Notes: generated by a model from the letters alone, not told the origin. Positions 3,828 through 59,760 are shown, numbered from the stretch's first letter. The stretch: DNA of 64,000 nucleotides from a virus (IMGVR_UViG_3300036944_000513:37644-101643), one strand, 5' to 3'. Numbers and translations are program-made.

Positions 3828-4115
3828 TTATTCTACGTTATTGCCCCGAGTTTTCTTTTTACGAATATTTTCATATAATTTCCATAGTATCGCCCATAAT
3901 GGTAATTGCTTTTCTTTTTCTACGTAGTATTTTCCCTCAATGCCGCATGGATTCTGTGGTATTCTATACCCAAAAACATTTTCCCTATGGTCTGAGCACT
4001 TATAATATACTTTATTACCATTAACCGGATTAGAATACATTGCAGTATACTTGCATATTTCAGTACCGCCACTCATGGAATAATAATACTTACAGTTTAT
4101 ACAGAATTTGCTCAT
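3828..4115 (-). CDS. hypothetical Cys-rich protein
   Basis: 95 aa with multiple CxxC pairs; ATGA stop/start overlap with the upstream gene. Confidence 0.45.
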   Translation of the reverse strand: MSKFCINCKYYYSMSGGTEICKYTAMYSNPVNGNKVYYKCSDHRENVFGYRIPQNPCGIEGKYYVEKEKQLPLWAILWKLYENIRKKKTRGNNVE

Positions 4116-4714
4116 TTTATTCCCTTATAAAATACGTGTGCCCCAGCCGTTGCTACTAATGCGGTTTTATCCCCCCATTTTGGTTGCACGTATGTTGCAT
4201 GATAATGTAGTATTTTAGTTGATGCCAATGGTTCTACGCGCATACCTTCACGCATCATGCCTGTTGCAATGGTCATATAATAGTCTTGCTGCTTTGCTGA
4301 CCAATTGACCACTTTCTTTTCCAGTGTCCAAGAGAATTGTGCCTTAGCAAACACCACTTTGCACATGCTAGAACCCCAATTCCCGGCCTTTAAACGGTTG
4401 ATGTGTACCTGACCCACTGCATACTGGTCTTGGGGCTTCTGGTTGCCTGCTTCCCTGAATATAGAGTATGCCAGACACTTTACATCTTTATTTGTTTGTC
4501 CCTTGATTGGAGTATATCCGGGCTGTATATCATCATCAGTTATACTATGCAGTTTAGCTTTAACTGGTTTTTGTACCGGCTTTTTAAACATTGCATCTAA
4601 TTTGGCTGTGATATCTTTTGATAATGCAAATTCTTTTGCGGTTTCTGTCCACATAGCATTTGCTGTTGTGCATACTAATGCAGATAATAATACTGTTAAT
4701 TTAATAGTTATCAT
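4112..4714 (-). CDS. secreted SleB/CwlJ-like cell-wall hydrolase
   Basis: N-terminal signal peptide (MITIKLTVLLSALVCTTANA); motifs CLAYSIFREAG and GQVHINR are typical of the SleB (Hydrolase_2) family. Confidence 0.6.
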   Translation of the reverse strand: MITIKLTVLLSALVCTTANAMWTETAKEFALSKDITAKLDAMFKKPVQKPVKAKLHSITDDDIQPGYTPIKGQTNKDVKCLAYSIFREAGNQKPQDQYAVGQVHINRLKAGNWGSSMCKVVFAKAQFSWTLEKKVVNWSAKQQDYYMTIATGMMREGMRVEPLASTKILHYHATYVQPKWGDKTALVATAGAHVFYKGIK

Positions 4715-5166: not shown

Positions 5167-5257
5167 CTTGAAGTGTCTTTTCGTTGCGATAACTGATTGT
5201 AACCGATTTTCTGGGTGAAACACCAAAATATTTTTTAGTGTCTCTTTTTTACAACAG
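5167..5257 (-). promoter_or_regulatory. PeSL-like early promoter cassette
   Basis: Conserved TTGTTGCGATAACTGATTGTAACCGAT (plus strand; equals -10 TACAAT plus leader on the minus strand) and a TGTTGTAAAAAAGAGACAC box at the upstream stop codon. Confidence 0.6.
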
Positions 5258-5482: not shown

Positions 5483-5483
5483 A

Positions 5484-5927
5484 TTAGTCCACGTAGAATT
5501 TAAATACTGCCAGAATGCGTGTGCCCGCTTTCATGCGTCCGGTATCAACTAATTGACCATTTTCGACTACCGTAGCATGACCGCGCACAATCACGATAAA
5601 CTTACCAAAAGGATTAGCTTCCATGAACGATTTGATGGTCATACTTTTGTCATGGAATACACCGCTGATTTTGCGATACTTTGCCCAAATCACAGTTTTT
5701 GCGCCGTAGAATTCGGTGCTGATTGCGCCGTTACGCTTATAGCATTCGATCACGTTTTCTATGGTCATACCGCGATTTTTGGTGCGGTATTTCATGGTAG
5801 CTTTGTGCGCTTCTGGGTACTCGATTTCCAGAGCATTTGCCAATGCACGAACTGTGCAGTCACGGGTTTCGCTGATGCCGTGAGAGGAAGGATTTTCACC
5901 GCGAGAGACTGGAGCAATGTAGGCCAT
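5484..5927 (-). CDS. hypothetical protein (GC-rich island)
   Basis: 147 aa; start directly after a PeSL cassette. Confidence 0.5.
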   Translation of the reverse strand: MAYIAPVSRGENPSSHGISETRDCTVRALANALEIEYPEAHKATMKYRTKNRGMTIENVIECYKRNGAISTEFYGAKTVIWAKYRKISGVFHDKSMTIKSFMEANPFGKFIVIVRGHATVVENGQLVDTGRMKAGTRILAVFKFYVD

Positions 5928-6019
5928 AATTCAGTACCGTTTTTTGTTGCGATAAGGTATTGTAACCGATTTTCGGGGTCTTTTTACAGTTTCCCCGAAA
6001 ATATTTCTAACCGTTGTTT
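5928..6019 (-). promoter_or_regulatory. PeSL-like early promoter cassette
   Basis: Box GTTGCTTAAAAACAAC overlaps the upstream stop codon; a 10-bp-stem hairpin ATTTTCGGGG/CCCCGAAAAT carries TGTAAAAA in its loop; -10 TACAAT; leader TTATCGCAACAAAAAAC. Confidence 0.65.
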
Positions 6020-23568: not shown

Positions 23569-23814
23569 TTATTTCTGAGTATATTCTTTGCCATCAATAA
23601 TAACTGAGGTGGTGCGAGCTTTATTGCCCATTTGTACCGTAGTTGAACTTTCTGGGCAGCGACCAACGGTAATGCGGGAACCGGTGCCGTTGACTATCTC
23701 ATAAAACTTACAATCCTTTAGCTCATCAGGTACGGCAGGAAAGTTTATTTGTGTTGCGCTTGGTGTACATCCAACCAATAATGCTAGGGTTGATACTAAG
23801 ATAAATCGTTTCAT
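23569..23814 (-). CDS. lipoprotein (signal peptide with lipobox LVGC)
   Basis: MKRFILVSTLALLVGCTPS. Confidence 0.55.
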   Translation of the reverse strand: MKRFILVSTLALLVGCTPSATQINFPAVPDELKDCKFYEIVNGTGSRITVGRCPESSTTVQMGNKARTTSVIIDGKEYTQK

Positions 23815-32573: not shown

Positions 32574-33371
32574 TTACTTGTTCATCATCAAAGCATTGAA
32601 GTTTGATGGCACAACAATTGTTTGTACTTTACCAGTCTTAATACCTTCTGAGATATTCAACATAGCTTGGGCTTGCATGAATGCAATTGAAGAACCGGAG
32701 TTGTTAGCTAGTGCAGCCATACGACGAGATTCGGCTTCGGCAGTTTTAACTTCAACTTCCTTTTGTTTCAGTTCGTTCTTAGCCTTCACCAATTCGTTAG
32801 CACTTGCTACAACTGAATCTGCGGGCACTACATTACGAATCAAAACCTGACTGATAGTGATAGAACCATCCAGCTTTTCTTCGGTGAGGTTACGGACAAT
32901 TTCTTCCTTGATAAAGTTTTCCATATCGGAACGAGCATCTGCCATATCCAAGGCTTCGTATTTACGCGCTGCCTTGTAAATGGAGTTACGAGCATTTTGT
33001 ACAATGTAGTTATACATCACATAGGTATCACCTTTGGCTTCGGCATGGAAGCTCTTGTTCTTGGTGGAGTAAAGTTCAGCCACTTGTTGTGGGTTGATAT
33101 TATAAACAACCACCGCATCAAAGTCTTTCATGGTGGAGTTGTCTTTAGCAACCGGAGTCATGTTCTCCAAAACTACATTAACATCTTTGATAGGGAAAGT
33201 TAGCACATTACCAATCAATTCTTGATTAAAAGACCCCGGCAAGAGTTCACCACTTTGAACTTGCTTATCAAAACCAACACGAACACCAACTTGGCCGGTT
33301 TCAATACGAGTACATGCGGAAGTCAAAGCAACGGCAGCAACAACCAAAAACAATTTTACAAAACGATTCAT
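32574..33371 (-). CDS. SPFH/band-7 domain lipoprotein (HflK/C-prohibitin-like)
   Basis: Signal peptide with lipobox LTSAC, an SPFH-domain-like region, and a C-terminal coiled coil (KAKNELKQKEVEVKTAEAESRR). Confidence 0.55.
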   Translation of the reverse strand: MNRFVKLFLVVAAVALTSACTRIETGQVGVRVGFDKQVQSGELLPGSFNQELIGNVLTFPIKDVNVVLENMTPVAKDNSTMKDFDAVVVYNINPQQVAELYSTKNKSFHAEAKGDTYVMYNYIVQNARNSIYKAARKYEALDMADARSDMENFIKEEIVRNLTEEKLDGSITISQVLIRNVVPADSVVASANELVKAKNELKQKEVEVKTAEAESRRMAALANNSGSSIAFMQAQAMLNISEGIKTGKVQTIVVPSNFNALMMNK

Positions 33372-33561: not shown

Positions 33562-34101
33562 TTACTTTTCTCCTTTTGCTAAAATTAGATTTTTACCAGT
33601 CTGCCAAATGCATTCTTCCAGAATTAAACCTTGTTTTACCGTTCCATCACATAAAATATGATATAAAGATTGAACAGTAATTTCAAATTCAACTCCCCGT
33701 GGATCTAAAATTTTAAACAATTTATTTCCACGATAACGATTCACTGTGTCAATCAATTTAAATCCACTGAGAGGAACATTATCCCATATTCGGGGAGCAT
33801 AGTCAAGCTCAATTGGTCTATCAAACTTAATTTCATTGCGTTGGCGAGTAACGGAGTCATATGCAAATGTTGATCCCCTTTCCCACCATTCGTTTCCATT
33901 TTTATATGCAGTTCCAGTATAAGCCCAATGCATTTGCGTTTCTTTACGCGCAGCATCGGTTTTTTTATTTGGTTCATGTGGATGAAGAAACCCAAAATTA
34001 TGGGATTCTTCATTATATGTATTCCAATCACCTTTAATTGGATAACTACGCTCAGAACGATTCTTTGAAACTACAAATATTTTATCTGGAATTTTAGTCA
34101 T
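33562..34101 (-). CDS. hypothetical protein
   Basis: 179 aa; ATGA overlap with the ligase gene. Confidence 0.5.
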   Translation of the reverse strand: MTKIPDKIFVVSKNRSERSYPIKGDWNTYNEESHNFGFLHPHEPNKKTDAARKETQMHWAYTGTAYKNGNEWWERGSTFAYDSVTRQRNEIKFDRPIELDYAPRIWDNVPLSGFKLIDTVNRYRGNKLFKILDPRGVEFEITVQSLYHILCDGTVKQGLILEECIWQTGKNLILAKGEK

Positions 34102-35144
34102 TGCGTTTCTCCAAGCAAATATTTGTTGCTGATGCTTTTAAAAGTCATTCCCCCCGCAACATGCTTAAACACAATACCTTCACGCTCCACACTAGGATTC
34201 AGTTTAGACTTATCCTCCGCCCATTGTAGAATTTCTTCCACTGAACCAACGCCAAGGTCTTTATCTACAAACAATACGGGGACATGAAGTAGTTCAAGAG
34301 AATCTACAAAATGACGCCTTACTGCTGGCTCAAAATATTTGCCGCTATTGATATGGTAGCAATCAAATACGCGAAACTCTGGCTTAGATAGCTTATAGAT
34401 ATTACCCTGAATTCCGGGGCCAATCAATTCACCTTGAATAGCAATATCATATGGCAAAGACATAATCTTTTCCTTAATATTGTTTTCAATTGCAGCTTTC
34501 CAGAATGCGTTATTCTCATCTTCCTTCAAGTCAAGATTGCGTGAGCATACACCAAATGTATCACCAATCTTATATACAGTCATCGAAGAGCCTTCCAGCT
34601 TTTCAGTGACTTCAAAGTGCATAGTCTTACATGCTGCAATTTCTTTGGTAAGATTTTGGGCACGTTCTTGATCGGTCTTAGGAATCAGTGATGGGAAGTT
34701 ACCCTTTGCCATGCCAGCCAACTGAGCATTCATAGGCTTTTCCCACTTTTGAATGCCAAGCAGTTCAGATACATCTTGCTCCATAGTAACTGTCCATTTG
34801 TGCGGGCTACCGTTGGCGTCAATGCCATGGATGAAGTTGCCAACTGATGTTTGATAAACCGGTAGCAACAGACCCTGAGACAATTGACCGCGCAACTTTA
34901 CAGTACGCAGACGTTCGCCTTTCACTCCATCGTATTCCCGTGGTTCTTTGCCTTTGCTAAGAAAAGGCGCCAACGCTGTAGGCACCCATGAATCGATCTC
35001 CAAATAAACTGCAAGCTCTCCAACATTATATTCGCCTTTTTTAACAACAACTTTCCAACCACCCACGGTTGCGCATTCAATAGCATCTGCACCCTCGATA
35101 GGATTCAGTGCATCAATCTTTCTAATAGTAGCTAATTTTCTCAT
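34098..35144 (-). CDS. RNA ligase, Rnl2/DraRnl-type (second RNA ligase)
   Basis: N-terminal MRKLATIRKIDALNPIEGADAIECATVGGWKVVVKKGE resembles the N-domain of DraRnl-type ligases; motif-I-like EVTEKLEGSSM (KxxG[ST]). Confidence 0.5.
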   Translation of the reverse strand: MRKLATIRKIDALNPIEGADAIECATVGGWKVVVKKGEYNVGELAVYLEIDSWVPTALAPFLSKGKEPREYDGVKGERLRTVKLRGQLSQGLLLPVYQTSVGNFIHGIDANGSPHKWTVTMEQDVSELLGIQKWEKPMNAQLAGMAKGNFPSLIPKTDQERAQNLTKEIAACKTMHFEVTEKLEGSSMTVYKIGDTFGVCSRNLDLKEDENNAFWKAAIENNIKEKIMSLPYDIAIQGELIGPGIQGNIYKLSKPEFRVFDCYHINSGKYFEPAVRRHFVDSLELLHVPVLFVDKDLGVGSVEEILQWAEDKSKLNPSVEREGIVFKHVAGGMTFKSISNKYLLGETQ

Positions 35145-35748: not shown

Positions 35749-36168
35749 TTAATTCCTGTTAAGATAATCAACTGCCTTCATCACGCCTTCAAGTGTATCA
35801 CCAAGAGACCCAATAGATTTATTACAATCATCGCATAACCAGCCCCTGAATGTTTTAGTAATCGGGTCATGATCTAGAACAAGTCCCCGTATTCTTCTAT
35901 TCGGATTTGCATTTGGGCCACTGTTTGGGGCTTTGCCACAACACTCGCACACACTTGTTTTTGGTGGCGCGGTTAGTCTAATTTTCTCTACTTCTTTACT
36001 TCGCGTTTTAATGCATACCCGGCATCGAGTATCATGCCCATCGGAAATATGTGAATGCTTTGGAAAATCAGTTAACGGCTTATCTTCTTTACAGTATATG
36101 CAGGATTTGGTTGTAACTTCATGTTCTCCAAATACTGTATTAACTTTCAACTGCGCCACCAATAACAT
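35749..36168 (-). CDS. endonuclease VII-family protein (T4 gp49-like Holliday-junction resolvase)
   Basis: LVLDHDPITKTFRGWLCDDCNKSIGSLGD matches the EndoVII signature (LDHDH...RGLLC..CN...G), with an N-terminal Cys cluster. Confidence 0.6.
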   Translation of the reverse strand: MLLVAQLKVNTVFGEHEVTTKSCIYCKEDKPLTDFPKHSHISDGHDTRCRVCIKTRSKEVEKIRLTAPPKTSVCECCGKAPNSGPNANPNRRIRGLVLDHDPITKTFRGWLCDDCNKSIGSLGDTLEGVMKAVDYLNRN

Positions 36169-36649
36169 GATATTTCAACTTAGCTGCTTGATATGCTTCA
36201 CTGGCTAGTTCTGGGGTTTCATAGTGACCAAGGCAAATATCCTTGCCATTCAACATAATTCGTGCCCGCCAAGAACGAGATTTATATTTAGACACACCCA
36301 AATATCCAGATTTTGCTAAAATCTTGTTGATATTAAATTGATTTTCCTGATTGGTAACATCCCGCAAATTACTGAGTTTATTATTTGATCTATTTCCGTC
36401 AATATGATCAATATGATTGGTAGGCCATTTTCCATAAGTAAATAGCCAAGCCAAACGATGGGCGCGATAACTTTTAAAATTAAACTTAATACCAATATAC
36501 CCACGGCTTAAACTACCAATAATATCACCCACTTTAGATTTAGATTTCAATTTAACTTTAATCCAAGTAAAATGACCCGTCTCTGGGTCATAAGACAAAT
36601 ATTGTTTCATTTCTTCCAACAGAGCCGTAACATCATCAACTTTATCCAT
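36140..36649 (-). CDS. HNH homing endonuclease with an AP2 DNA-binding domain
   Basis: HRLAWLFTYGKWPTNHIDHIDGNRSNNKLSNLR (HNH) and GYLGVSKYKSRSWRARI (AP2-like). The in-frame ATG at 36649 has a GGGGGA SD. Confidence 0.6.
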   Translation of the reverse strand: MDKVDDVTALLEEMKQYLSYDPETGHFTWIKVKLKSKSKVGDIIGSLSRGYIGIKFNFKSYRAHRLAWLFTYGKWPTNHIDHIDGNRSNNKLSNLRDVTNQENQFNINKILAKSGYLGVSKYKSRSWRARIMLNGKDICLGHYETPELASEAYQAAKLKYHVIGGAVES

Positions 36650-36712
36650 GCGTCCCCCAATTTTATAAGATTCCAAAGTGTATACTAATTTTACCCGATT
36701 GTCAACTACTTT

Positions 36713-39392: not shown

Positions 39393-39672
39393 GCTCTTTA
39401 ACTACCTCTTTAATCAGTGTTGCAACTATGTCTTGTAAGATATATTGGAATTCAGTATCAGCATAAATGCTTTCATCAATTCCTTCTGGCTTGTTTACAA
39501 CATGGTAGTTTAGTTGCACTTCATTATCATCGCCAAAGTCAAGTTGTTGAATTTGGATAATTGTTCCATTAAATTTACCCGCAGCCGTTAAAGTTACTCC
39601 CCAATCAGTTTCGCTTACATACCACGGCTCAAAGTTTTCAGACATTTTTAAGTTCATCATCCAGTTCCTCAT
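39355..39672 (-). CDS. hypothetical protein at the T4 gene-40 position
   Basis: 105-aa ORF between gene 41 and uvsX; the start is probably the internal MSENF (39645); no recognisable similarity. Confidence 0.4.
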   Translation of the reverse strand: MRNWMMNLKMSENFEPWYVSETDWGVTLTAAGKFNGTIIQIQQLDFGDDNEVQLNYHVVNKPEGIDESIYADTEFQYILQDIVATLIKEVVKEHENRTGNFSESS

Positions 39673-40729
39673 CGGTCATAGTTCCACCACTTTCAATTTC
39701 TTCATTAATCATCAATCCGCCGTTACTTAGCTGGTATTTTTGTTTAACAAACTCATTAAATCTTTTATCAGCAAGGATAGAAGTCCAGAAATCAGATGTG
39801 TTCGTATCTGCTTCACGATATTTCTTTGCTTCCATTTCTCCGGTTTCCAAATCTACTTTTGAATACCAACCATTGCTTGGCTTTATGACATGCTTTGATT
39901 CAAGAGCAATGTCAAGTAAGCCAGACCACTTGCTGATGCCACCATTATAAGATAGAGAGACAGGTATTTTAGATTTTTCTTTAACATAGCGAGATTTTTC
40001 TACATTGATAATAAAATTGTAACCAGTAACTTCTGTGCCATCTTTTTCTTGCTGGCGACCAAGAATAAAAATATTGTCTGCGCTGTAATAACTTCCAGTG
40101 CCACCACCAACAACATCTTTTGCATATAGCTCAAGAGTTTTATAGGTATGGTTCACCACAATCATTGGAATATCCTTCAATGATAGATGCGGAGTTATCA
40201 TGCGAAACAATGACTTAACTTGTTTTGCTCGGGACATGTCTGCAACAGATTTCCCATCCATTGCATCATCAACTTCCTTCTTGGATGCAAGATTGCCAAT
40301 AGAGTCGATGACAATGATTAGATTATCTCCGCGCTGAACTTCACTTAGCTGCTTCATGATATCAAACTTCAACTGTTCAATGTCGGTGAGCGGCGTATGC
40401 AAAACCCTGCTTGTATCAATTCCAAATGCATCAAAATAACTTTGTGGAGTTCCAAACTCCGAATCATAGAATAGCAATGCTGCTTCTGGGTACTTGTCCA
40501 AATAAGACTTTGCCATCAACAACGAGAACCCGGTCTTAAAGTGTTTTGATGGGCCAGCCCACATAGTAAGTCCCGGAGTCAATCCACCATCCAATTTACC
40601 AGACAATGCAACATTGATGATTGGAATTGATGTTGGAATCATATCCTTCTGATTGAAGAACTTTGACTTTGATAGAATGGCAGAATCCTTGATGCTGCTA
40701 TTCTTTTTAATTTTATCTAGTATGCTCAT
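39638..40729 (-). CDS. uvsX: UvsX recombinase (RecA-like)
   Basis: Close alignment to T4 UvsX throughout, for example VNHTYETQE / GGGTG / FIINVEKSR. Confidence 0.9.
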   Translation of the reverse strand: MSILDKIKKNSSIKDSAILSKSKFFNQKDMIPTSIPIINVALSGKLDGGLTPGLTMWAGPSKHFKTGFSLLMAKSYLDKYPEAALLFYDSEFGTPQSYFDAFGIDTSRVLHTPLTDIEQLKFDIMKQLSEVQRGDNLIIVIDSIGNLASKKEVDDAMDGKSVADMSRAKQVKSLFRMITPHLSLKDIPMIVVNHTYKTLELYAKDVVGGGTGSYYSADNIFILGRQQEKDGTEVTGYNFIINVEKSRYVKEKSKIPVSLSYNGGISKWSGLLDIALESKHVIKPSNGWYSKVDLETGEMEAKKYREADTNTSDFWTSILADKRFNEFVKQKYQLSNGGLMINEEIESGGTMTDEELDDELKNV

Positions 40730-40780
40730 AATTTTCCTATAAAGCTGAATTCTAACTGACTATTATAAAAAATGCAATAC

Positions 40781-41221
40781 TTAATCGCACCAGCTTTTCT
40801 TCGCATCGCCATAATATTCTCTAGCATATCCTTTTTTGATTAGCATTTCGCGTAGACTTTTTCCATCAAGAAAAACATCACCTAAAACTCTGCCGCCGTA
40901 CTTATCCCAATCAATAATGACAATCTCGGTTTTTTTACTATCACGGATAGTTTGCTTGGTAAACTCAGTCGCAGTTTGCCCCAATGTATTTTCCTTTGGA
41001 CACTTTGCTCTAAATCCTTTTTCTGGTGTATCGACACCAAATACTCGAATAGATAATTCTTTCTTCAATGGCTCTGGTAGAAAGTTTGCTTGAAATGCAA
41101 CAGTATCCCCATCAATTACGCGGGTCAAAGGATAGTCATATGTTACTCCATCTTTTTGCTTTTGTGCAAATGCAGATGTTGCCAATACGGCAAGTAAGAT
41201 AAATGTTAGTAATTTTTTCAT
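40781..41221 (-). CDS. secreted thermonuclease (staphylococcal-nuclease/SNase-like)
   Basis: Signal peptide MKKLLTFILLAVLATSAFA; SNase-like RVIDGDTV...VFGVDTPE...YGRVLGDV. Confidence 0.6.
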   Translation of the reverse strand: MKKLLTFILLAVLATSAFAQKQKDGVTYDYPLTRVIDGDTVAFQANFLPEPLKKELSIRVFGVDTPEKGFRAKCPKENTLGQTATEFTKQTIRDSKKTEIVIIDWDKYGGRVLGDVFLDGKSLREMLIKKGYAREYYGDAKKSWCD

Positions 41222-41409
41222 TCTGATAATCCTTTAATTAAATTTTGTATTTCTTCTTGGGTTAGATAGTATTTTTGTACCGTAGGTGCATCTTTTAATC
41301 CCAAATTTTCAGAGATTAATTTAACCTCTTTAATATTGAATTTTGGTATTTCACTGACTACCATTGTAAAACGGTATGCTGGGGTTTCACTGATAATAAA
41401 ATGTTTCAT
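41218..41409 (-). CDS. hypothetical protein
   Basis: 63-aa ORF coupled to its neighbours. Confidence 0.4.
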   Translation of the reverse strand: MKHFIISETPAYRFTMVVSEIPKFNIKEVKLISENLGLKDAPTVQKYYLTQEEIQNLIKGLSE

Positions 41410-43898
41410 GTAAATAATCCTTCAAGGGTTGCTTTGGGTTTGGCTGACCATTTGATGCCTTCCAAAATGGTGTTCAATGGTTCAATGAATGATTTTTCAA
41501 ACATCAAATCATAATCAATATATTTGTGAATATCGAATTCTGCGGGTATGTTATTTATAAATGCAATGCAGTTTTCTCCAATAGTATTTGGCTCTCTCAA
41601 GTAAATAAACTTAACTTTACTCCCTTCTTTAATTTCCTCATAAGTCATATCTAGCTTATGCTTCTTTAGATGGAAATTATAAAGCAATGATCCCCTTACA
41701 TGAATCGGAGTTGCTTTTTTGTATATCATTGAAGAATCGGTATACTTCATCAATCCATTAACGCCACGGGGAAATGCAATATTCTCAGGAGTCATTTTCA
41801 TATACTCAGCTTCAAACTTGGAGATATATTTCTGCAATTCGCTTTCGGTGGATGTTAAAGCCAGATTAACTGCCTTTTTTAACCCTTTACGGATTGGCTC
41901 AGGCGTAGACGATCTAACAATCTCCAATCCCATGACCTTCAATTTTGGTTCAGCGTATTGCACACCTTCATTGTTATAAACATTTAATGCGTATCGTTTC
42001 TTTGCTACCCAAATTCCTCTATCCGCAATTGCTTCGCGCTTAAAGAAAATCTTATTCTCAAATGCATTAGTATTATTTGCAAGTTTCTGACATGCAATAT
42101 TCAATTGCTTCTCAATCTTTTCTTTGCAAATCTTATCAAGAATTTCAATGATCTTTTCTTTGCTGGCATCTTTATAATACTTATCAACCAATGGGCCAAA
42201 TGTTACATAGCATGAATCGGTGTCTGAGTAGAATACATAATCGAACCCAACAGTACCACAGACACCATTCAAATAGTCATTCAATGCCGCAGCAACTTCA
42301 CGAATGATATATTGCCCAGTCATTGTAATACCTTCTGCGATATATGAATCATAGAATCTAAAGTATTCATTGGAGAATGCCCCGAACAATGAGTTAAGCA
42401 AAATCTTGTATGCCATTTGCTTATTATTGAACTTGGAAATCTCATTCAAATACTTTTTGTCCTTAGTATCCTCATACTTAGTCTGTGACGCAAGCATCAG
42501 CTTCTTTGCAGTCTGCCTATTACCAAATAGCTTTGCAGTAATCTCTGGAAACAATCCTTGCTTATCTCTGGAATAGCATCGACCATTTGACGCCATTGCA
42601 TAATCAACTTCTGTTAAGTCACTTAGATCAACATTATTTTTCAATAGCTGTTCAACGGTAATATCAAAGTGTTTAGTATAATTAGGAATTAATGTCTCGG
42701 GAGACATATTATATTGCATAATAATACTTGGATACAAACTTGTTGCATCAAATGATACTACCCAATCATACTGACCGGGAACTGGAGTCTGAACATATGC
42801 ACCAACAATGCTGCGAGAAGGCTTGTGATCCTTCTGCGGAATCATGATATTCTGTTTCCATAGGTGATTATATAAAATACAATCCCACGTTCTAACCGCA
42901 GAAAAGATATCCACGAAATTGCACTTGGCATCATATGCCATAGTCATAATCAAGTCAATAAGACGCATCTTATCTTCAAGTTGATCGACTCGTTCAACGT
43001 CAACAATATTGTATTCTACGAATAGATTCCAATCTTTTGTATAGAATTCCTTGAATGTGGAATATGGATTTTCAAGTTTACCTGCCCCCAATTCAAGTTT
43101 TGCAATATGATCTAGCTTATAACTTTCTTGCACGTTATAAGTAAACTTCTTATACAATTGCAGATAGTCTAGAATAGAAATGCCAAAAATATCATAAACG
43201 ATATCAATGGATTTTCCGCGTTCTATTTCTCTACGATTAACATTTTTCCACGGTGACAATCTATTAAGAAAATCTTTTCCAAGCATCTTCTCAATTCTGG
43301 CACATAAATAGCCAATGTCAAATAGTTCAACATTCCAGCCAGTGACAATATGCGGATAATCTCCCTCAAAGAACTCAATGACGCGCTTCAATAAACCAAT
43401 TTCACTGTGGCAGTTAATATATGTTTTATTCGGGTGAGTTTGCTCATATGGCTTTATGCCAAATGTAGTAATAGCCTTGGATACATTATCCTGAATAGAT
43501 ACCAGAATAACTTCTTCCATGGGGTCGGAAACATCGGGAAACCCATGCTCGACAGTAGTTTCAATATCGAGTGTCCAGATTTTCATCTGTGACGAATCAT
43601 ATTCTATTTCTTCGGGGAAAGTCTCGGTGATGTACTGATATGCGTAATTAGTATTCCCAAAGACTGGGAAGTTAGAAACTTCGCTGTACGTTTTCACATA
43701 TTCTTTGGCATCATTGATATCCGTAAACTTAATAGAATCAAGAGTATCGCCAAAAAGTGATTTGTATTTTGTTTGTTCTTTTGTTTTAACAAACAGGCTT
43801 GGGCGAAAGCCTACCTTTTCATGGACTTGCTTTCCTTCATTGATTCCGCGAACAAGAATCTTGTTTCCATACTGTATGACTGACGTATAAAATCGCAT
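41406..43898 (-). CDS. 43: DNA polymerase gp43 (family B, with 3'-5' exonuclease domain)
   Basis: Exo I DIETT; polymerase motifs DFTSLYPSI and YGDTDS-like (YSDTDSCYV); N- and C-termini align to T4 gp43. The start was moved to MRFY (AAGGA SD) at 43898. Confidence 0.9.
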   Translation of the reverse strand: MRFYTSVIQYGNKILVRGINEGKQVHEKVGFRPSLFVKTKEQTKYKSLFGDTLDSIKFTDINDAKEYVKTYSEVSNFPVFGNTNYAYQYITETFPEEIEYDSSQMKIWTLDIETTVEHGFPDVSDPMEEVILVSIQDNVSKAITTFGIKPYEQTHPNKTYINCHSEIGLLKRVIEFFEGDYPHIVTGWNVELFDIGYLCARIEKMLGKDFLNRLSPWKNVNRREIERGKSIDIVYDIFGISILDYLQLYKKFTYNVQESYKLDHIAKLELGAGKLENPYSTFKEFYTKDWNLFVEYNIVDVERVDQLEDKMRLIDLIMTMAYDAKCNFVDIFSAVRTWDCILYNHLWKQNIMIPQKDHKPSRSIVGAYVQTPVPGQYDWVVSFDATSLYPSIIMQYNMSPETLIPNYTKHFDITVEQLLKNNVDLSDLTEVDYAMASNGRCYSRDKQGLFPEITAKLFGNRQTAKKLMLASQTKYEDTKDKKYLNEISKFNNKQMAYKILLNSLFGAFSNEYFRFYDSYIAEGITMTGQYIIREVAAALNDYLNGVCGTVGFDYVFYSDTDSCYVTFGPLVDKYYKDASKEKIIEILDKICKEKIEKQLNIACQKLANNTNAFENKIFFKREAIADRGIWVAKKRYALNVYNNEGVQYAEPKLKVMGLEIVRSSTPEPIRKGLKKAVNLALTSTESELQKYISKFEAEYMKMTPENIAFPRGVNGLMKYTDSSMIYKKATPIHVRGSLLYNFHLKKHKLDMTYEEIKEGSKVKFIYLREPNTIGENCIAFINNIPAEFDIHKYIDYDLMFEKSFIEPLNTILEGIKWSAKPKATLEGLFT

Positions 43899-43946
43899 AA
43901 TATCCTTAGACTCAAATTCATATCTTACCACACCCCAACACGAATG

Positions 43947-44774
43947 TCAACTGATCGCACATGGAAATACCAATTCCTGAACAATTTCTTCTGCGGAGTA
44001 GCTGCTATAATAGCCCAAGTTTTTAAGTTTAGAATTATCCATGTACATTGACTTCACCTGTACAATTTTATGGAAGTCTGCCTGCGGAATATTCTTGATC
44101 TGAGATGTTGACAATGATATTTTTTTAGCATATCTAATAATATCACCAAAGTTCACTGGAATCCCATTGCCAACATTATAAATTGTATTATACTCGCCAA
44201 CAGTTACAATCATGTTGATTGCTCTACACAAGTCTGATACATGAATATAATCACGATAAAAATCACCGTTATCGTATAATTCAATATCTCTATTTGCGCT
44301 AATTTCATTAACAAGATATGTTAATGCATTTTTCTTTTTCGATACTTTTTTATCGTTTCCACCAACTACATTTGCAAATCTCAAAATGCGATACTTTATA
44401 TTAAAGGTTTCGCAGTATGAGATAAGCAACTGTTCAGCGGTGCGTTTGGTGATGGAATAAAATCCTTTTGGATTACATGGTGATGTTTCTTTTGCTGGCA
44501 ATTCGGTATCACCATAAACAAACCATGAACTAACAAAATTGAAAACTGTGTCAGGATTATCCTTACACTTTTCTAATACTCGCATGAGAGTTGTTAGATT
44601 AGTTTCAATATCTATAAAAGGATTTGTTGAAACCGAATAGTTATCAACTGTAGAAATCATGTATAAAATATCATTTAACTTTGGGGTCAAATCATTTCTA
44701 TCATTGACGATGCACATATACTTAGAAGCATATGCTGAACCAACATACCCCTTTCCACCAAACACATTAATCAT
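43947..44774 (-). CDS. NAD(P)-dependent SDR epimerase/reductase (nucleotide-sugar modifying)
   Basis: GGKGYVG Rossmann motif and a YSITK catalytic YxxxK. Confidence 0.55.
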   Translation of the reverse strand: MINVFGGKGYVGSAYASKYMCIVNDRNDLTPKLNDILYMISTVDNYSVSTNPFIDIETNLTTLMRVLEKCKDNPDTVFNFVSSWFVYGDTELPAKETSPCNPKGFYSITKRTAEQLLISYCETFNIKYRILRFANVVGGNDKKVSKKKNALTYLVNEISANRDIELYDNGDFYRDYIHVSDLCRAINMIVTVGEYNTIYNVGNGIPVNFGDIIRYAKKISLSTSQIKNIPQADFHKIVQVKSMYMDNSKLKNLGYYSSYSAEEIVQELVFPCAIS

Positions 44775-44783
44775 AATAAAATC

Positions 44784-45038
44784 TTATTGGTTAATAAATT
44801 CCATAAATGCAGTTTTAGTCATTCCACCAATCTTACGATGAGTCTCGACTCCATTTTCATCAAGTAAAACCAATGCAGGAATACTTCTGATATTGAATTT
44901 ATTTGCCATTTCAGTATTTTCGTCAATGTCAATATTTTCAAGTTCTACTGGCAACTCTTGAGAAATTCCGGCAATAGTATCTGACAACATTTTACATGGT
45001 TGGCACCATGTTGCATGGAACTTTAAAACTTTTTTCAT
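44784..45038 (-). CDS. thioredoxin-like protein
   Basis: WCQPCK active site; in-frame ATG with an ATGA overlap to the upstream gene. Confidence 0.65.
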   Translation of the reverse strand: MKKVLKFHATWCQPCKMLSDTIAGISQELPVELENIDIDENTEMANKFNIRSIPALVLLDENGVETHRKIGGMTKTAFMEFINQ

Positions 45039-45481
45039 ATCTTTTCCTCTATAATTTTTACATAATCGCTGCAAATAGCATAGCAATTGGTGGGTAACTT
45101 TTTAAATTCTGGATCATTCCATTCGGGTAAAACTGCAATGCTTTTTTGTGTCAACTCTTTATTTGGATATGCCCATATCCATTTATGGCTGGTTATAACA
45201 TAATCGTCATTTTGATGCCAAAAATAATTGTAGGAAGTATCGGTTAGCCAACGTAATGCGCCCAAGTTTTTTGCATGTATCCAAAATCCAATATCGTTTA
45301 AAAACTCCATTGATATTGGATATGTTGGTTCATCATGCCCCAAATAAAGTTCGGAGTGTATTACCCATAAATCTATTTCACAATCAAACCCAAGTTTTCT
45401 TGCTAACAAAATTTGTGCTGGGCTATTTTCTATGGCGGGATTTGGGCCATCAATTAAGCCACGATGGGCAATCAATTTCAT
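45035..45481 (-). CDS. glycerophosphodiester phosphodiesterase-like (GDPD) protein
   Basis: N-terminal IAHRG...EN...E.D..., characteristic of GP-PDE. Confidence 0.5.
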   Translation of the reverse strand: MKLIAHRGLIDGPNPAIENSPAQILLARKLGFDCEIDLWVIHSELYLGHDEPTYPISMEFLNDIGFWIHAKNLGALRWLTDTSYNYFWHQNDDYVITSHKWIWAYPNKELTQKSIAVLPEWNDPEFKKLPTNCYAICSDYVKIIEEKI

Positions 45482-46845
45482 TTTGTATTATTTAAGAAAT
45501 AATTCAAATCCTCTGGAGTACCAATTCCCCACATATTTTCAATTTCTTTGATTCTAATCTTTTTATTATCTTCAATTGCTTCATTGAAAACTGGACACAC
45601 ATAAAATTCATTGTTGACCCGAATATTTTTCTCGATCATTTTTTCCGCATATTTTACATAATCCGAGCCCTTAGACCAATAATATACCCCAACGGTTGCA
45701 TTATCGGAGATTGGTTTTTTCTCTGCAACTTCTGCGACAAACCCATCATCGCCAAGTCTTGCATAACTCCATTTTGGATGAGTGGATTTAAATGTTAACA
45801 TACCAGCATCTATTCCATCTGCTTTAAATGCATACATTACATTGTTGCTGTTCCATTCAATATACTGGTCACTGTTTGCAATGACAAGTGGATCATCGTT
45901 ATCAATCAAATCCTTTGCCAACAAAGTAGTACACGCTGCACCCTCAGTTATCCCATCCAATTGAACAATTTTACAATTTGGAGCAATTAGATTAAGCAAA
46001 TATTGCAAATTATACTTTTCATAATGTGATTTTTGAACTAAGAAAATATAGTTTGCTTGGATATTGAGATTCTCAACAACCACCTGAATCATCGGCTTAC
46101 CTCTAACATCAATTAAAGGCTTTGGAAATGTGTAGCCCTGAGTCTGGAATCTAGAGCCAGCCCCCGCCATAGGAATTAGCACATTTAACTTACTATCTTT
46201 CCATGGAATGGAAGTATTAACAGAATTTTTCATATCATTTATTTTATTAAATATTTTCTCAAATGTAACATCATGGCTATTTTCAACTGCCAATAAATTA
46301 GCGCCGCTATTTAATGCGCCTTCTCTTCCAATGTGACTATCTTCTACGATAATAGTATCTTTGGGCAATACATGCAATGCAGTCATACATTTCCAGTACA
46401 TTTCTGGATATGGTTTTGGGTGTTTAACGTCCTGATTACTTACAAAATAATCAACATACTCAATTACACCAATTTTTAGTAAACTTAATTTTACTGTTTC
46501 TCTGATGCTATTACTTGCAACGGCAATTAAATATCCGGCACTTTTAGCATACTTAAATATATCAATTAATTTTTTATCTATTGGAAAATTAGAAATCAAT
46601 TCCAATGTTGCAGATTGCTTCATTTCCCAAATTAAATTGTGGGAAGAGCTTGGCAATCCTTTTAACTTTGTTAAAATTTCTAATTTTTTAGTAGTATTTA
46701 ATCCATCATATGTAGAAAGATGTTCTTCTCTAGTAATTATATACTTCTCATCAATTTTAGCCAATGACATATTGAGTGTTTGGTAATGTAATTCTCTGCT
46801 TTCGATTAGAACTCCATCCAAATCAAATATTATAAGTTTATTCAT
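45478..46845 (-). CDS. bifunctional HAD-family phosphatase / sugar-phosphate nucleotidyltransferase
   Basis: N-terminal FDLDGVLIES (HAD motif I, beta-PGM-like); C-terminal LIPMAGAGSRF...PKPLIDVRGKPMI (NTP-transferase G-x-G-x-R motif). Confidence 0.6.
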   Translation of the reverse strand: MNKLIIFDLDGVLIESRELHYQTLNMSLAKIDEKYIITREEHLSTYDGLNTTKKLEILTKLKGLPSSSHNLIWEMKQSATLELISNFPIDKKLIDIFKYAKSAGYLIAVASNSIRETVKLSLLKIGVIEYVDYFVSNQDVKHPKPYPEMYWKCMTALHVLPKDTIIVEDSHIGREGALNSGANLLAVENSHDVTFEKIFNKINDMKNSVNTSIPWKDSKLNVLIPMAGAGSRFQTQGYTFPKPLIDVRGKPMIQVVVENLNIQANYIFLVQKSHYEKYNLQYLLNLIAPNCKIVQLDGITEGAACTTLLAKDLIDNDDPLVIANSDQYIEWNSNNVMYAFKADGIDAGMLTFKSTHPKWSYARLGDDGFVAEVAEKKPISDNATVGVYYWSKGSDYVKYAEKMIEKNIRVNNEFYVCPVFNEAIEDNKKIRIKEIENMWGIGTPEDLNYFLNNTK

Positions 46846-46851
46846 AATTAA

Positions 46852-47595
46852 TTATCTATGTAATGCCAATAGACGCATAGGATATCCAATAATATTATCG
46901 GTAGCGAATCTTTTAGCAAAAGTTGCAAATTTATATTTCTCTGGAATTGGGTCATCAATATCTTTATAAACATGATTTACATCATCAAACATATTGCTAG
47001 TCCATTCAAGGTATTTAGGATTAAATACTAATAGATTATCATCAAATGTTTTTCCATCAAAATCTACTCGTTGAGTATATAATTTATTCGGGTCAATTGT
47101 ATTTAAATTGGGAAGATCCCAAATCTGTGAATCATATCGTGTCATAACAACCGCATCATATTTAACCGAATTTTCAATTGAATATTTTTCAACTAGTTTT
47201 GATGCCTGCGAAATAGAATATAGTTGAGATAAAACATTACTATGATTAACTGTCCCAGCAGTCCACCACAAAGTTTTTGTTAAATTTTCATCGTGATATT
47301 TTTTAATCTCAGTATCATATTCAAATATTCTAGGCGGTTCAATCGTTAATATTTTAGGACGAAATACACTATTCAATACTAAAATTGAATCAGATAATTC
47401 GACTGGAACTTTTGAAATCTGTGACCAAGTAGAATTGACATATGTTTTATTCTTTCCAGACCACCATACATGCCCAAACACATCAGTATTATATTTTGAT
47501 AATATCTCATGATGCAATGTATTAACTACACTCCCATATTCAGGAGTATTGCTAACATGTCTAGCTTGCCCATAAAATAGTAGAGCAACTCTCAT
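46852..47595 (-). CDS. hypothetical protein (associated with the sugar locus)
   Basis: 247-aa ORF. Confidence 0.45.
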   Translation of the reverse strand: MRVALLFYGQARHVSNTPEYGSVVNTLHHEILSKYNTDVFGHVWWSGKNKTYVNSTWSQISKVPVELSDSILVLNSVFRPKILTIEPPRIFEYDTEIKKYHDENLTKTLWWTAGTVNHSNVLSQLYSISQASKLVEKYSIENSVKYDAVVMTRYDSQIWDLPNLNTIDPNKLYTQRVDFDGKTFDDNLLVFNPKYLEWTSNMFDDVNHVYKDIDDPIPEKYKFATFAKRFATDNIIGYPMRLLALHR

Positions 47596-58837: not shown

Positions 58838-58912
58838 TGGTCCGGGATGACGGAATCGAACCGCCATTTAGGGAGTAGAAATCCCCTGTATTATCCATTA
58901 TACGAATCCCAG
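58838..58912 (-). tRNA. tRNA-Arg (anticodon UCU)
   Basis: 75-nt cloverleaf: 7-bp acceptor stem, GTAT/ATAC D-stem, anticodon loop TT-TCT-AC, T-arm GGCGG-TTCGATT-CCGTC, encoded CCA. Confidence 0.85.
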
Positions 58913-59683: not shown

Positions 59684-59760
59684 TGGTGCGACTTGTTGGG
59701 CTCGAACCAACGACCAATCGATTATGAGTCGAATGCTCTGACCAACTGAGCTAAAGTCGC
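59684..59760 (-). tRNA. tRNA-Met (anticodon CAU; elongator-type, or a lysidine-modified tRNA-Ile2)
   Basis: 77-nt cloverleaf: acceptor GCGACTT/AAGTCGC, D-arm GCTC/GAGC, anticodon loop CT-CAT-AA, T-arm GTTGG-TTCGAGC-CCAAC, encoded CCA. Confidence 0.85.

What the first reader, a model, noticed from the sequence alone, without database searches (positions are those of the whole stretch)
40781..41221. Secreted SNase-like nuclease inserted between uvsX and the DNA polymerase gene
T4 has beta-gt, gene 42 and imm at this position. Here a 146-aa protein with a cleavable signal peptide and a staphylococcal-nuclease fold motif takes their place. An exported nuclease encoded inside the replication module might degrade extracellular DNA or biofilm matrix, or attack periplasmic nucleic acids of competitors.
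Basis: partly seen in the sequence, partly recalled or inferred. Interest (0 to 1): 0.5.

Follow-up and report, generated by a model that had tools for sequence, protein, structure and literature searches.

The report
Exported mini staphylococcal-type nuclease in phage
A T4-like phage carries, in a swappable cargo slot between its DNA polymerase and recombinase genes, an intact gene for a small DNA/RNA-cutting enzyme that is built to be exported from the cell interior; it belongs to a very common, already annotated but experimentally unstudied family, so it is real and ordinary in kind, with an unknown biological role.

Summary
ORF 40781..41221 (minus strand, 146 aa) lies between uvsX and the family-B DNA polymerase. 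It is a genuine staphylococcal-nuclease (SNase) homologue: Pfam PF00565, phrog_452, a high-confidence AF2 model that matches S. aureus nuclease, and all catalytic and Ca2+ residues conserved. It has a canonical Sec/SPase-I leader (MKK-LLTFILLAVLATS-AFA|Q). It also has a Cys74/Cys145 pair that accompanies the leader across the subfamily; both are absent from the three leaderless cyanophage homologues examined. The gene is translationally coupled to the polymerase through a 63-aa ORF. It is under strong purifying selection.

It is accessory cargo. Of 70 UvsX-defined relatives, 43 have pol abutting uvsX, 4 carry a nuclease there, and about 23 carry other cargo. In unrelated phages, 66–78%-identical copies sit inside RNR/ThyX/thioredoxin modules or directly beside GH19 endolysins.

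Most likely it is a periplasm-sequestered, Ca2+-dependent non-specific nuclease that acts on nucleic acid outside the cytoplasm. Whether the payoff is salvage, exclusion of competing DNA, or clearing DNA at lysis is unresolved. It is a new member of a known kind, of modest interest.

The parts
40781..41221 (-). Complete CDS of the exported SNase-like nuclease (146 aa precursor; stop codon 40781-40783)
   Evidence: ORF list; Pfam SNase 48.6 bits; phrog_452; PDB thermonuclease; AF2 pLDDT 93.7; Foldseek match to SNase
41165..41221 (-). Signal-peptide coding part (residues 1-19: n-region MKK, h-region LLTFILLAVLATS, c-region AFA; predicted SPase I cut A19|Q20)
   Evidence: Sequence anatomy. In the 120 close homologues, position -1 is Ala in 118 and +1 is Gln in 115, while the h-region sequence drifts. 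No lipobox in any of the 120. The model shows an N-terminal helix at residues 2-16.
40784..41164 (-). Mature nuclease, 127 aa, 14.5 kDa, pI 8.8. Ca2+/catalytic residues D39, R59, D64, T65, E67, K107, Y108, R111. Conserved Cys74 and C-terminal Trp144-Cys145. No counterpart of SNase helix alpha3.
   Evidence: Alignment to S. aureus nuclease; conservation in 150 diverse representatives; secondary structure of the model; properties
41230..41234 (-). Shine-Dalgarno-like AAGGA, 8 nt upstream of the nuclease ATG
   Evidence: Sequence. The same AAGGATTAT-N-ATGAAA context precedes orf63; this is repeat D1.
41218..41409 (-). orf63: 63-aa ORF of unknown function. Its ATG overlaps the polymerase stop (ATGA) and its stop overlaps the nuclease ATG (ATGA), so it couples nuclease translation to the polymerase message.
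   Evidence: Kept with the nuclease in same-lineage contigs L087-L092. No family or homologue in Pfam, PHROGs, NCBIfam, PADLOC or the phage database.
41406..43931 (-). Upstream flank: family-B DNA polymerase (gp43-like)
   Evidence: Pfam DNA_pol_B and DNA_pol_B_exo1; about 49% identity to cyanomyovirus polymerases
39638..40729 (-). Downstream flank: UvsX recombinase. It is separated from the nuclease stop by a 51-bp spacer (40730-40780) that contains a TATAAT-like hexamer and GGAA before the uvsX ATG.
   Evidence: Pfam T4_UVSX_C and RecA; sequence

Best explanation
The gene encodes a small, non-specific, Ca2+-dependent nuclease of the staphylococcal-nuclease family that works outside the cytoplasm.

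Shown by computation: the fold and the full catalytic set; a canonical, evolutionarily maintained Sec/SPase-I leader; a near-invariant Cys pair; strong purifying selection; translational coupling to the DNA polymerase message; and status as movable accessory cargo.

Inferred: the precursor is made from early or middle infection together with the polymerase. It is exported by Sec, cut after Ala19 and oxidised to a Cys74-Cys145 disulfide. It then becomes active in the Ca2+-containing periplasm, while the inner membrane shields the replicating phage genome from it.

There it would act like a phage-supplied version of host periplasmic endonuclease I. It would degrade any DNA or RNA that reaches the periplasm, such as genomes of superinfecting phages or other incoming DNA, and environmental nucleic-acid fragments. 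This would remove competitors and feed phosphate and nucleoside salvage for phage DNA synthesis. Anything left is released at lysis.

My probabilities: about 0.8 that it is an exported active nuclease; about 0.5 that its main payoff comes during infection in the periplasm (salvage and/or exclusion) rather than after lysis.
For: Identity. All SNase Ca2+ and catalytic positions are present (D21/R35/D40/T41/E43/K84/Y85/R87 correspond to D39/R59/D64/T65/E67/K107/Y108/R111). All except the Y108 position (Tyr in 100, Phe in 33, Trp in 9 of 150) are at least 93% conserved in 150 diverse representatives.

Export: leader anatomy. A hydrophobic leader was called in 126 of 150 diverse representatives and a signal peptide was predicted in all 120 close homologues; among those 120, -1 is Ala in 118 and +1 is Gln in 115. 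The h-region sequence varies while its hydrophobicity is kept. Cys74 is present in 143 of 150 and Cys145 in 138 of 150 representatives; both Cys and the leader are absent from three cyanophage homologues. There is no in-frame ATG before codon 126, so no leaderless isoform initiating at ATG is encoded (in-frame TTG codons exist at 13 and 32).

Functionality: codon position 2 is 84-97% identical while 4-fold sites are near saturation.

Timing: two ATGA overlaps link pol, orf63 and the nuclease, and there is no promoter or terminator signal of its own.

Context with nucleotide-supply genes: NrdB lies within two genes in 49 loci, thioredoxin is immediately downstream in 26, and NrdA lies within two genes in 27 of the 104 loci in which the nuclease was located. 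The Rhizobium phage has nrdB-nrdA-hyp-nuclease. Thioredoxin is an alternative insert at the same pol-uvsX hotspot.

Precedents: SNase is toxic without, and tolerated with, a periplasmic leader (PMC13522737). Prophage-encoded YokF is a membrane-localised SNase-family nuclease that blocks plasmid traffic (10.1101/2025.10.26.684598). The T4 imm annotation states that superinfecting DNA is left in the periplasm to be degraded.
Against: No signal-peptide predictor and no experiment were available.

DNA ejected by phages is normally not exposed in the periplasm, so exclusion would need an Imm-like partner. None is evident: orf63 shows no hydrophobic transmembrane stretch by inspection of its sequence.

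Large environmental DNA cannot cross an outer membrane, which limits salvage.

SNase-type enzymes yield 3'-phosphorylated products (established enzymology of the family, not tested here), which need further host enzymes before reuse.

Genomic context is not uniform. In 13 loci from at least three backgrounds the gene abuts an endolysin, which favours the lysis-time rival.
Confidence: 0.5

Rival explanations
1. Lysis-time dispersal enzyme. The nuclease is stockpiled harmlessly in the periplasm. It matters only when the envelope is breached. It then digests released host chromosome, RNA and surrounding extracellular DNA, so progeny virions are not trapped in viscous DNA or biofilm/floc matrix.
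For: In L012 the gene is the last member of an Rz-like spanin / o-spanin-like lipoprotein / GH19 endolysin / nuclease run. In L032 a GH19 endolysin lies 10 bp upstream. In L001, an unrelated 61-kb phage, the nuclease lies 10 bp upstream of a GH19 endolysin. Endolysin adjacency was seen in 13 loci. Engineered E. coli with periplasmic SNase auto-hydrolyse nucleic acid and lower lysate viscosity on lysis (PMC13522737). This window's phage also exports a cell-wall hydrolase through a signal peptide (4112..4714).
Against: In this window the gene is coupled to the DNA polymerase, not to lysis genes. In most loci it sits in the RNR/thioredoxin module, which suggests early or middle expression. Viscosity is unlikely to matter for single planktonic cells in dilute water. 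In the large phage group the lysis cassette and the RNR module are only 4-6 kb apart, so some adjacency may be incidental.
Confidence: 0.3
2. Uncleaved signal-anchor. The N-terminal helix tethers the nuclease to the outer face of the inner membrane. There it acts as a gatekeeper at DNA entry or exit sites, like YokF.
For: YokF is membrane-localised and needs that localisation for its function. Cleavage was not tested here.
Against: The h-region is only 13 residues, followed by a conserved A-x-A|Q, which is typical of cleaved leaders. The YokF C-terminal TNM domain is absent. YncB, which has only SP plus TNase, had no such activity.
Confidence: 0.07
3. Cytoplasmic host-DNA/RNA-degrading enzyme (a denA-like role), with the hydrophobic N-terminus not used for export. 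Nucleotides for phage DNA would come from the host chromosome.
For: Leaderless homologues are widespread in cyanomyoviruses: 350 of the 369 matching records are Synechococcus, Prochlorococcus or cyanophage records, annotated 'endonuclease'. The gene often lies next to RNR genes.
Against: The leader and the Cys pair are conserved together in this clade and both are missing in the three cyanophage homologues examined. No in-frame ATG exists before codon 126. From general knowledge, not tested here: SNase chemistry needs Ca2+ at concentrations that are not free in the cytoplasm, and disulfides do not form there. Unsequestered SNase is toxic and would also cut phage DNA.
Confidence: 0.05
4. Neutral passenger: a selfish mobile cassette that hops between phage genomes and gives the phage no benefit.
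For: The gene occupies different sites in different phages. Its tree disagrees with its location: it is 70-75% identical to copies in unrelated phages but only 53-60% identical to copies at the same site in sister phages. A GIY-YIG-looking ORF lies two genes downstream in 15 loci.
Against: Strong purifying selection with saturated synonymous sites. All catalytic residues, the leader and the Cys pair are retained in representatives of 50%-identity clusters, with 1040 clusters at E<=1e-10. No repeat or recombination footprint flanks the gene.
Confidence: 0.05

Closest known systems
Staphylococcus aureus nuclease A (thermonuclease, micrococcal nuclease; Pfam PF00565)
   Same: Same fold (Foldseek E about 6e-10, TM 0.60-0.68). 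About 30% identity over the core. Every Ca2+-binding and catalytic residue is conserved. Made with an export leader.
   Different: The mature protein is only 127 aa. The C-terminal helix alpha3 is missing (only two helices in the model; Pfam match covers profile positions 2-78 of 107). It is replaced by a short tail ending in a conserved Trp144-Cys145, and there is a second conserved Cys74. S. aureus nuclease has no cysteines. The host is probably Gram-negative, so the destination would be the periplasm. It scores far below the NCBIfam NucI equivalog cutoff (47.7 vs 250 bits).
YokF / YncB of Bacillus subtilis (COG1525; YokF is encoded by prophage SPbeta)
   Same: A phage-borne SNase-family nuclease with an N-terminal signal peptide that acts at or outside the membrane. 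JGI names close homologues 'endonuclease YncB (thermonuclease family)'. YokF degrades mobile DNA at the envelope.
   Different: YokF has an extra C-terminal TNM regulatory domain that is needed for its function, and it acts on nanotube plasmid transfer in a Gram-positive host. The window protein has no such domain and belongs to a lytic T4-like phage.
Cyanomyovirus 'endonuclease' (T4-like gene cluster 228, PF00565 domain), e.g. P-HM1 PHM1_225, P-RSM6, S-P4
   Same: Homologous SNase-domain gene in T4-like phages, 33-38% identical in the alignment, with the same catalytic residues.
   Different: The three cyanophage proteins examined have no leader and no Cys74/Cys145 pair, and they have a different C-terminal extension. 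They sit elsewhere in the genome (next to the terminase gene, or near CP12/talC).
'Nuclease SNase-like protein' of Rhizobium T4-like phages (RHph_Y65 gp211), Manatee Spring myovirus MW202675 'nuclease-like protein', Sulfurimonas phage SNW-1 'thermonuclease family protein'
   Same: Same clade: hydrophobic leader, RAKC...WC Cys pair and same length; 37-53% identical in the alignment. They are already annotated as nucleases in GenBank.
   Different: Different genomic positions: after nrdB-nrdA, before a GH19 endolysin, and next to a small polymerase-like gene. None is characterised experimentally, as far as the searched library shows.
Host periplasmic endonuclease I (EndA) in T4 Imm-mediated superinfection exclusion
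   Same: A non-specific nuclease located in the periplasm. The T4 record states that excluded DNA is left in the periplasm to be degraded.
   Different: EndA is host-encoded and, from my own knowledge, belongs to a different fold family. No Imm or Sp counterpart was identified next to the window gene. This is an analogy of location only; it was not tested.

Membership tests
Staphylococcal nuclease / thermonuclease family (Pfam PF00565) | Profile match above the curated gathering score | tested here: met
   48.6 bits against a cutoff of 21, E=1.3e-12; phrog_452 E=2e-21
Staphylococcal nuclease / thermonuclease family (Pfam PF00565) | OB-fold beta-barrel with flanking helices, superimposable on solved SNase | tested here: met
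   AF2 pLDDT 93.7, pTM 0.80; the 50 Foldseek PDB matches listed are all S. aureus nuclease entries, best E=5.7e-10, TM 0.56-0.68
Staphylococcal nuclease / thermonuclease family (Pfam PF00565) | Ca2+ ligands Asp21, Asp40, Thr41 and catalytic Arg35, Glu43, Arg87 (S. aureus numbering) | tested here: met
   D39, D64, T65, R59, E67 and R111 in the pairwise and multiple alignments; at least 93% conserved in 150 representatives
Staphylococcal nuclease / thermonuclease family (Pfam PF00565) | C-terminal helix alpha3 and Trp140 packing | tested here: inconclusive
   The model has no third helix. The Pfam match stops at profile position 78 of 107. A conserved Trp144 (139 of 150) may substitute for Trp140.
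Staphylococcal nuclease / thermonuclease family (Pfam PF00565) | Ca2+-dependent hydrolysis of DNA and RNA | not testable with these tools
   Needs an enzyme assay
Sec / signal peptidase I substrates | Positively charged n-region, uncharged hydrophobic h-region of about 10-15 residues, c-region with small residues at -3 and -1, no lipobox cysteine | tested here: met
   MKK / LLTFILLAVLATS / AFA|Q. Among the 120 close homologues, -1 is Ala in 118 and none has a lipobox. This was a rule-based scan only; SignalP was not available.
Sec / signal peptidase I substrates | Actual translocation and cleavage | not testable with these tools
   Needs fusion reporters, fractionation or N-terminal mass spectrometry
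Extracytoplasmic disulfide-bonded proteins | Conserved cysteine pair close enough in 3D to bond, co-occurring with an export signal | tested here: inconclusive
   Co-occurrence is met: both Cys present in 136 of 150 representatives, and both Cys plus the leader are absent from the cyanophage homologues. Distance could not be measured because model coordinates are not exposed.
NCBIfam equivalogs NucI (NF047694) and EcnA (NF047969) | Score above the equivalog cutoff | tested here: not met
   47.7 bits against a cutoff of 250; 44.5 bits against a cutoff of 180
YokF-type inhibitors of nanotube plasmid exchange | Three-part architecture: signal peptide, TNase domain and C-terminal TNM domain | tested here: not met
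   The protein ends 9 residues after the nuclease core, so there is no C-terminal domain. The preprint reports that all three domains are required.
PADLOC candidate defence protein 'SNc+LTD' (PDLC01096) | SNase domain plus LTD domain | tested here: not met
   A weak, domain-only match (27 bits) to profile positions 50-149 of 279
T4 Imm / Sp superinfection-exclusion proteins | Sequence homology to Imm or Sp | not tested
   Only the positional analogy was checked. No direct sequence comparison was run.

The most novel reading that the evidence does not exclude
Lytic phages of several unrelated lineages carry their own periplasmic nuclease as an envelope-level weapon and resource tool. It would destroy genomes of superinfecting phages or other incoming DNA in the periplasm and convert them, together with environmental nucleic acid, into phosphate and nucleosides for the resident phage. 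That would make it a phage-encoded replacement for host endonuclease I, and a new class of auxiliary gene for nucleic-acid scavenging and exclusion.
Probability: 0.25. Interest if true: 0.6.

Novelty: new member of a known kind. Interest (0 to 1): 0.3.

Why it matters
The family is very large: 7955 proteins at E<=1e-5 and 1040 clusters (at 50% identity) at E<=1e-10. It is tightly conserved and spread over unrelated environmental phages, plasmids and bacterial genome bins, yet I found no experimental study of a phage-encoded, exported, Gram-negative-type SNase.

If its role were shown, it would add either a superinfection-exclusion effector or a nutrient-scavenging auxiliary gene to phage biology. 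The minimal 127-aa disulfide-bonded SNase scaffold could also be a useful enzyme.

For this window the finding is mainly an annotation. It identifies the gene, shows that it is cargo in a variable pol-uvsX hotspot, and corrects 'secreted' to 'most likely periplasmic'.

Tried and rejected
- Megablast of the locus against cultured phages found nothing. The phage is known only from metagenomes.
- orf63 has no Pfam, PHROG, NCBIfam or PADLOC family and no tblastn match. It is not related to the 51-aa ORF at the same place in a cyanomyovirus.
- The promoter and terminator scan gave fewer promoter-like sites than shuffled sequence and no minus-strand terminator between the polymerase and uvsX genes. 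No separate regulation can be claimed.
- GC content of the gene equals that of its neighbours, so there is no compositional sign of recent transfer.
- The 27-nt direct repeat D1 is just two similar ribosome-binding/start regions, not a recombination scar.
- Measuring the Cys74-Cys145 distance failed because model coordinates are not exposed.
- Host inference gave conflicting signals. Gln at +1 fits the Bacteroidota Q-rule, and three of the four bacterial-genome matches above 50% identity are bins labelled Haliscomenobacter, Sphingobacteriales and Planktophila. However, Shine-Dalgarno motifs are 4-fold enriched upstream of the window's genes. From my own knowledge that is atypical for Bacteroidota. 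I left this unresolved.
- Literature searches for EcnA and for RP4 ParB as an SNase homologue returned nothing usable. The RP4 ParB resemblance remains a recollection and was not tested.
- Plasmid contexts (toxin-antitoxin, zincin-like metallopeptidase, replication genes) gave no functional theme.
- The PADLOC match was domain-only.

Full report
**1. The observation**

The window holds an ORF at 40781..41221 on the minus strand, 146 aa, exactly as described. Downstream on the coding strand is UvsX (39638..40729; Pfam T4_UVSX_C and RecA). Upstream is a family-B DNA polymerase (41406..43931; DNA_pol_B and exonuclease domains).

Its start overlaps the polymerase stop and its stop overlaps the nuclease start, both as ATGA. 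An AAGGA sits 8 nt before the nuclease ATG.

No promoter or terminator signal separates the three genes. Promoter-like sites are fewer than in shuffled sequence. The nuclease is therefore most simply read as co-expressed with the polymerase.

The T4 record lists segA, beta-gt, 42, imm and imm.1 between uvsX and 43.

**2. What the protein is**

- Sequence: it matches Pfam SNase PF00565 at 48.6 bits (cutoff 21), phrog_452 'endonuclease' at E=2e-21, and S. aureus thermonuclease chains in the PDB at E=1e-8.
- Structure: an AlphaFold2 model built on an 87-sequence alignment has mean pLDDT 93.7. The 50 listed Foldseek matches in the PDB are all S. aureus nuclease entries (best E=5.7e-10, TM 0.56-0.68).
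- Active site: in the pairwise and multiple alignments, every residue that binds Ca2+ or takes part in catalysis in S. aureus nuclease is present. D21, R35, D40, T41, E43, K84, Y85 and R87 correspond to D39, R59, D64, T65, E67, K107, Y108 and R111.
- Difference from the classical enzyme: the model has only two helices (75-94 and 123-129) and no counterpart of helix alpha3. The Pfam match stops at profile position 78 of 107. The chain ends in a short tail with Trp144-Cys145.
- Naming: it is not an equivalog of the curated nucleases NucI or EcnA. It hits a PADLOC candidate defence model only through the shared domain.

**3. Export**

The N-terminus reads MKK / LLTFILLAVLATS / AFA | QKQK. This is a charged n-region, a 13-residue uncharged hydrophobic core, and small residues at -3 and -1.

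A rule-based scan I wrote flags 13 of 236 window ORFs of at least 60 aa. Some of those flagged lie on the opposite strand inside known genes and are probably not genes. This ORF scores highest among the flagged ORFs that are plausible genes.

The evolutionary pattern is more telling:
- In 120 close homologues the hydrophobic core changes in sequence but stays hydrophobic. Position -1 is Ala in 118 and +1 is Gln in 115. None has a lipobox.
- In 150 representatives of 50%-identity clusters (38-74% identical to the query), a hydrophobic leader was called in 126. Cys74 is present in 143, Cys145 in 138 and Trp144 in 139. Many of the exceptions are truncated fragments.
- The three T4-like cyanophage homologues I examined lack the leader and also lack both cysteines.

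A conserved Cys pair that travels with an export signal is what one expects of a disulfide formed outside the cytoplasm. I could not check the geometry because model coordinates are not exposed.

There is no in-frame ATG before codon 126 (in-frame TTG codons exist at 13 and 32), so no leaderless isoform initiating at ATG is encoded. The mature protein would be 127 aa, 14.5 kDa, pI 8.8.

The protein ends 9 residues after the nuclease core and has no further domain that could direct secretion across an outer membrane. In a diderm host the expected destination is therefore the periplasm, not the medium.

**4. A functional gene under selection**

Against homologues 70-86% identical in protein, codon position 2 is 84-97% identical. 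Four-fold degenerate sites are only 26-50% identical, close to what the A+T-rich third-position composition would give by chance. The similarity is therefore maintained by purifying selection and is not due to recent transfer.

GC content matches the neighbouring genes.

**5. Accessory cargo in a variable hotspot**

The phage has no close cultured relative. Its polymerase is about 49% identical to those of cyanomyoviruses. In those phages the polymerase is followed by a 51-aa ORF and then UvsX.

Contigs carrying the identical nuclease or an 86%-identical copy keep the order pol-orf63-nuclease; where sequence continues, a further gene that clusters with UvsX follows.

I fetched 80 viral contigs whose UvsX is about 80% identical to the window's. 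The pol-uvsX junction is captured in 70 of them:

| Content of the junction | Loci |
|---|---|
| Empty (gap of 65-120 bp) | 43 |
| Nuclease, without orf63 (gap about 550 bp) | 4 |
| Other inserts | about 23 |

The other inserts are:
- a 376-aa protein with several hydrophobic, apparently membrane-spanning stretches and no known family (12 loci);
- thioredoxin (4 loci);
- an Asp/Asn-hydroxylase-like cupin (3 loci);
- a 2OG-Fe(II) oxygenase.

So 'inserted' is correct, and the site is a cargo hotspot, much as it is in T4.

The window's nuclease is 70-75% identical to copies in unrelated phages but only 53-60% identical to the four copies at the same site in sister phages. This indicates independent acquisition or replacement. 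No repeat scar flanks the gene.

**6. Where the gene sits elsewhere**

The family is large: 7955 proteins at E<=1e-5 in the 90%-identity clustered collection, and 5461, 1040 and 29 cluster representatives at E<=1e-3, 1e-10 and 1e-30. Sources already name close members 'endonuclease YncB (thermonuclease family)' or 'micrococcal nuclease'.

None of the 80 best IMG/VR loci (66-78% identical) has a UvsX match nearby, and only distant family-B polymerase matches (25-30% identical) occur, in 9 of them. Neighbour clustering covered the 104 loci in which the nuclease was located:

| Neighbour | Loci |
|---|---|
| NrdB within two genes | 49 |
| NrdA within two genes | 27 |
| Thioredoxin immediately downstream | 26 |
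| phrog_3704 protein immediately upstream | 16 |
| GH19 endolysin directly adjacent | 13 |

Specific cases:
- In L012 the order is Rz-like spanin, lipobox lipoprotein, GH19 endolysin (phrog_181, E=1.6e-75), then the nuclease.
- In L032 a shorter GH19 endolysin lies 10 bp upstream.
- In the unrelated 61-kb Manatee Spring myovirus (MW202675) the nuclease lies 10 bp upstream of a GH19 endolysin.
- A Rhizobium T4-like phage has nrdB-nrdA-hypothetical-nuclease.
- Sulfurimonas phage SNW-1 has the gene next to a small polymerase-like gene and two genes from dnaB.
- Plasmid homologues (about 30-39% identical) lie in accessory or maintenance regions.

Context therefore points to replication, nucleotide supply and lysis in roughly two, two and three independent backgrounds. 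It does not settle the role.

**7. How it most likely works**

Shown by computation: identity, catalytic competence, export-type leader, Cys-pair co-variation, selection, translational coupling and mobility.

Inferred: Sec export, cleavage at A19|Q20, disulfide formation, and Ca2+-activated non-specific cleavage of DNA and RNA in the periplasm, with the inner membrane protecting the replicating phage genome.

This compartment logic matches engineering experience. SNase without a leader is toxic to E. coli. With an OmpA leader it accumulates harmlessly in the periplasm, and it digests nucleic acid once cells are broken (PMC13522737).

Because the gene is coupled to the polymerase here, and sits among RNR, ThyX and thioredoxin genes in most other phages, I favour action during infection (about 0.5). 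In this reading it is a phage-supplied analogue of host periplasmic endonuclease I. It would degrade DNA that reaches the periplasm, removing competing genomes and feeding phosphate and nucleoside salvage. Two precedents fit:
- the T4 imm annotation, which says excluded DNA is degraded in the periplasm;
- prophage-encoded YokF, a membrane-localised SNase-family nuclease that blocks plasmid traffic (10.1101/2025.10.26.684598).

The main rival (about 0.3) is a lysis-time role in clearing released or matrix DNA. It is supported by the recurrent endolysin adjacency.

Minor rivals are an uncleaved membrane anchor, a cytoplasmic denA-like role, and a neutral passenger. Their evidence and refutation tests are listed in the Rival explanations section.

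**8. Comparison and novelty**

The protein is a member of the SNase/thermonuclease family; the defining features I could test are met.
- It is not a YokF-type protein, because it has no TNM domain.
- It is not a NucI or EcnA equivalog.
- It belongs to a different clade from the leaderless cyanophage endonuclease.
- Close relatives are already annotated as nucleases in Rhizobium, Sulfurimonas and uncultured phages.

Searches of the paper library found no characterised phage-encoded exported SNase in a Gram-negative setting.

I rate it a new member of a known kind. The compact alpha3-less, disulfide-tethered architecture is a family-wide variant worth noting. Interest is modest at 0.3. The identity is ordinary and already annotated in databases. 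The unresolved role in lytic phages, together with the gene's abundance, is the interesting part.

Noticed in passing
window 4112..4714 (-): A 200-aa ORF with a signal-peptide-like N-terminus (MITIKLTVLLSALVCTTANA|M) and a Pfam Hydrolase_2 cell-wall hydrolase domain (E=7.5e-17). It is a candidate Sec-exported endolysin, so the phage may export a second enzyme.
   Followed up: partly
window 32574..33371 (-) and 23569..23814 (-): Two ORFs with lipobox-like leaders (…ALTSA|C and …LLVG|C). The first is an SPFH/Band-7 domain protein. The second is an 81-aa protein that could be an o-spanin-like lipoprotein.
   Followed up: partly
window 35749..36168 (-) and 36140..36676 (-): Adjacent ORFs with Endonuclease_7 and HNH_3 domains. 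These are homing-endonuclease-like genes, about 1.3 kb beyond the gp41 helicase gene on the side away from the finding.
   Followed up: partly
window 43947..47595 (-): Directly upstream of the polymerase lie an NAD-dependent epimerase/dehydratase, a thioredoxin, a 148-aa ORF of unknown family, a HAD hydrolase fused to a nucleotidyl transferase, and a 247-aa ORF. This looks like a sugar-nucleotide cluster (possibly for DNA or surface glycan modification). The 86%-identity relative L089 keeps the thioredoxin-epimerase-pol order.
   Followed up: partly
L140 about 4869-5999 (approximate); also L115, L135, L153, L157, L160, L166, L173, L176, L178, L179, L190: The commonest alternative insert at the pol-uvsX hotspot in relatives is a 376-aa protein with several hydrophobic, apparently membrane-spanning stretches and a charged, coiled-coil-like middle, with no Pfam or PHROG family. 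T4 carries the membrane protein Imm at the same junction.
   Followed up: partly
L114-L193 versus the window: Among these relatives UvsX is about 80% identical to the window's, but the adjacent polymerase is only about 40-56% identical. Neighbouring core genes therefore show unequal divergence, or the region is mosaic.
   Followed up: no
+2 position from the nuclease in 15 loci, e.g. L064: A 133-aa ORF whose N-terminus looks like a GIY-YIG motif (…GFIYEITN…YVGK…) recurs two genes downstream of the nuclease. It may be a homing endonuclease that helps move the region.
   Followed up: no
window 41165..41164 boundary (A19|Q20) and homologues P0001-P0120: Gln follows the predicted cleavage site in 115 of 120 close homologues, as in the Bacteroidota 'Q-rule' (PMC5837995). 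Bacterial-genome matches above 60% identity are bins labelled Haliscomenobacter, Sphingobacteriales and Planktophila. Yet Shine-Dalgarno motifs are 4-fold enriched upstream of the window's genes. The host phylum is unresolved.
   Followed up: partly
L057 (IMGVR_UViG_3300046787_000200, 352-kb contig): A jumbo-phage-sized contig carries a 68%-identical nuclease directly after a short GH19 endolysin.
   Followed up: no
window 34098..35144 (-); 58838..58912 and 59684..59760 (-): An RNA ligase (PHA02142 OB-fold plus RNA_ligase domains) and two tRNA genes (Arg-TCT and Met-CAT).
   Followed up: no
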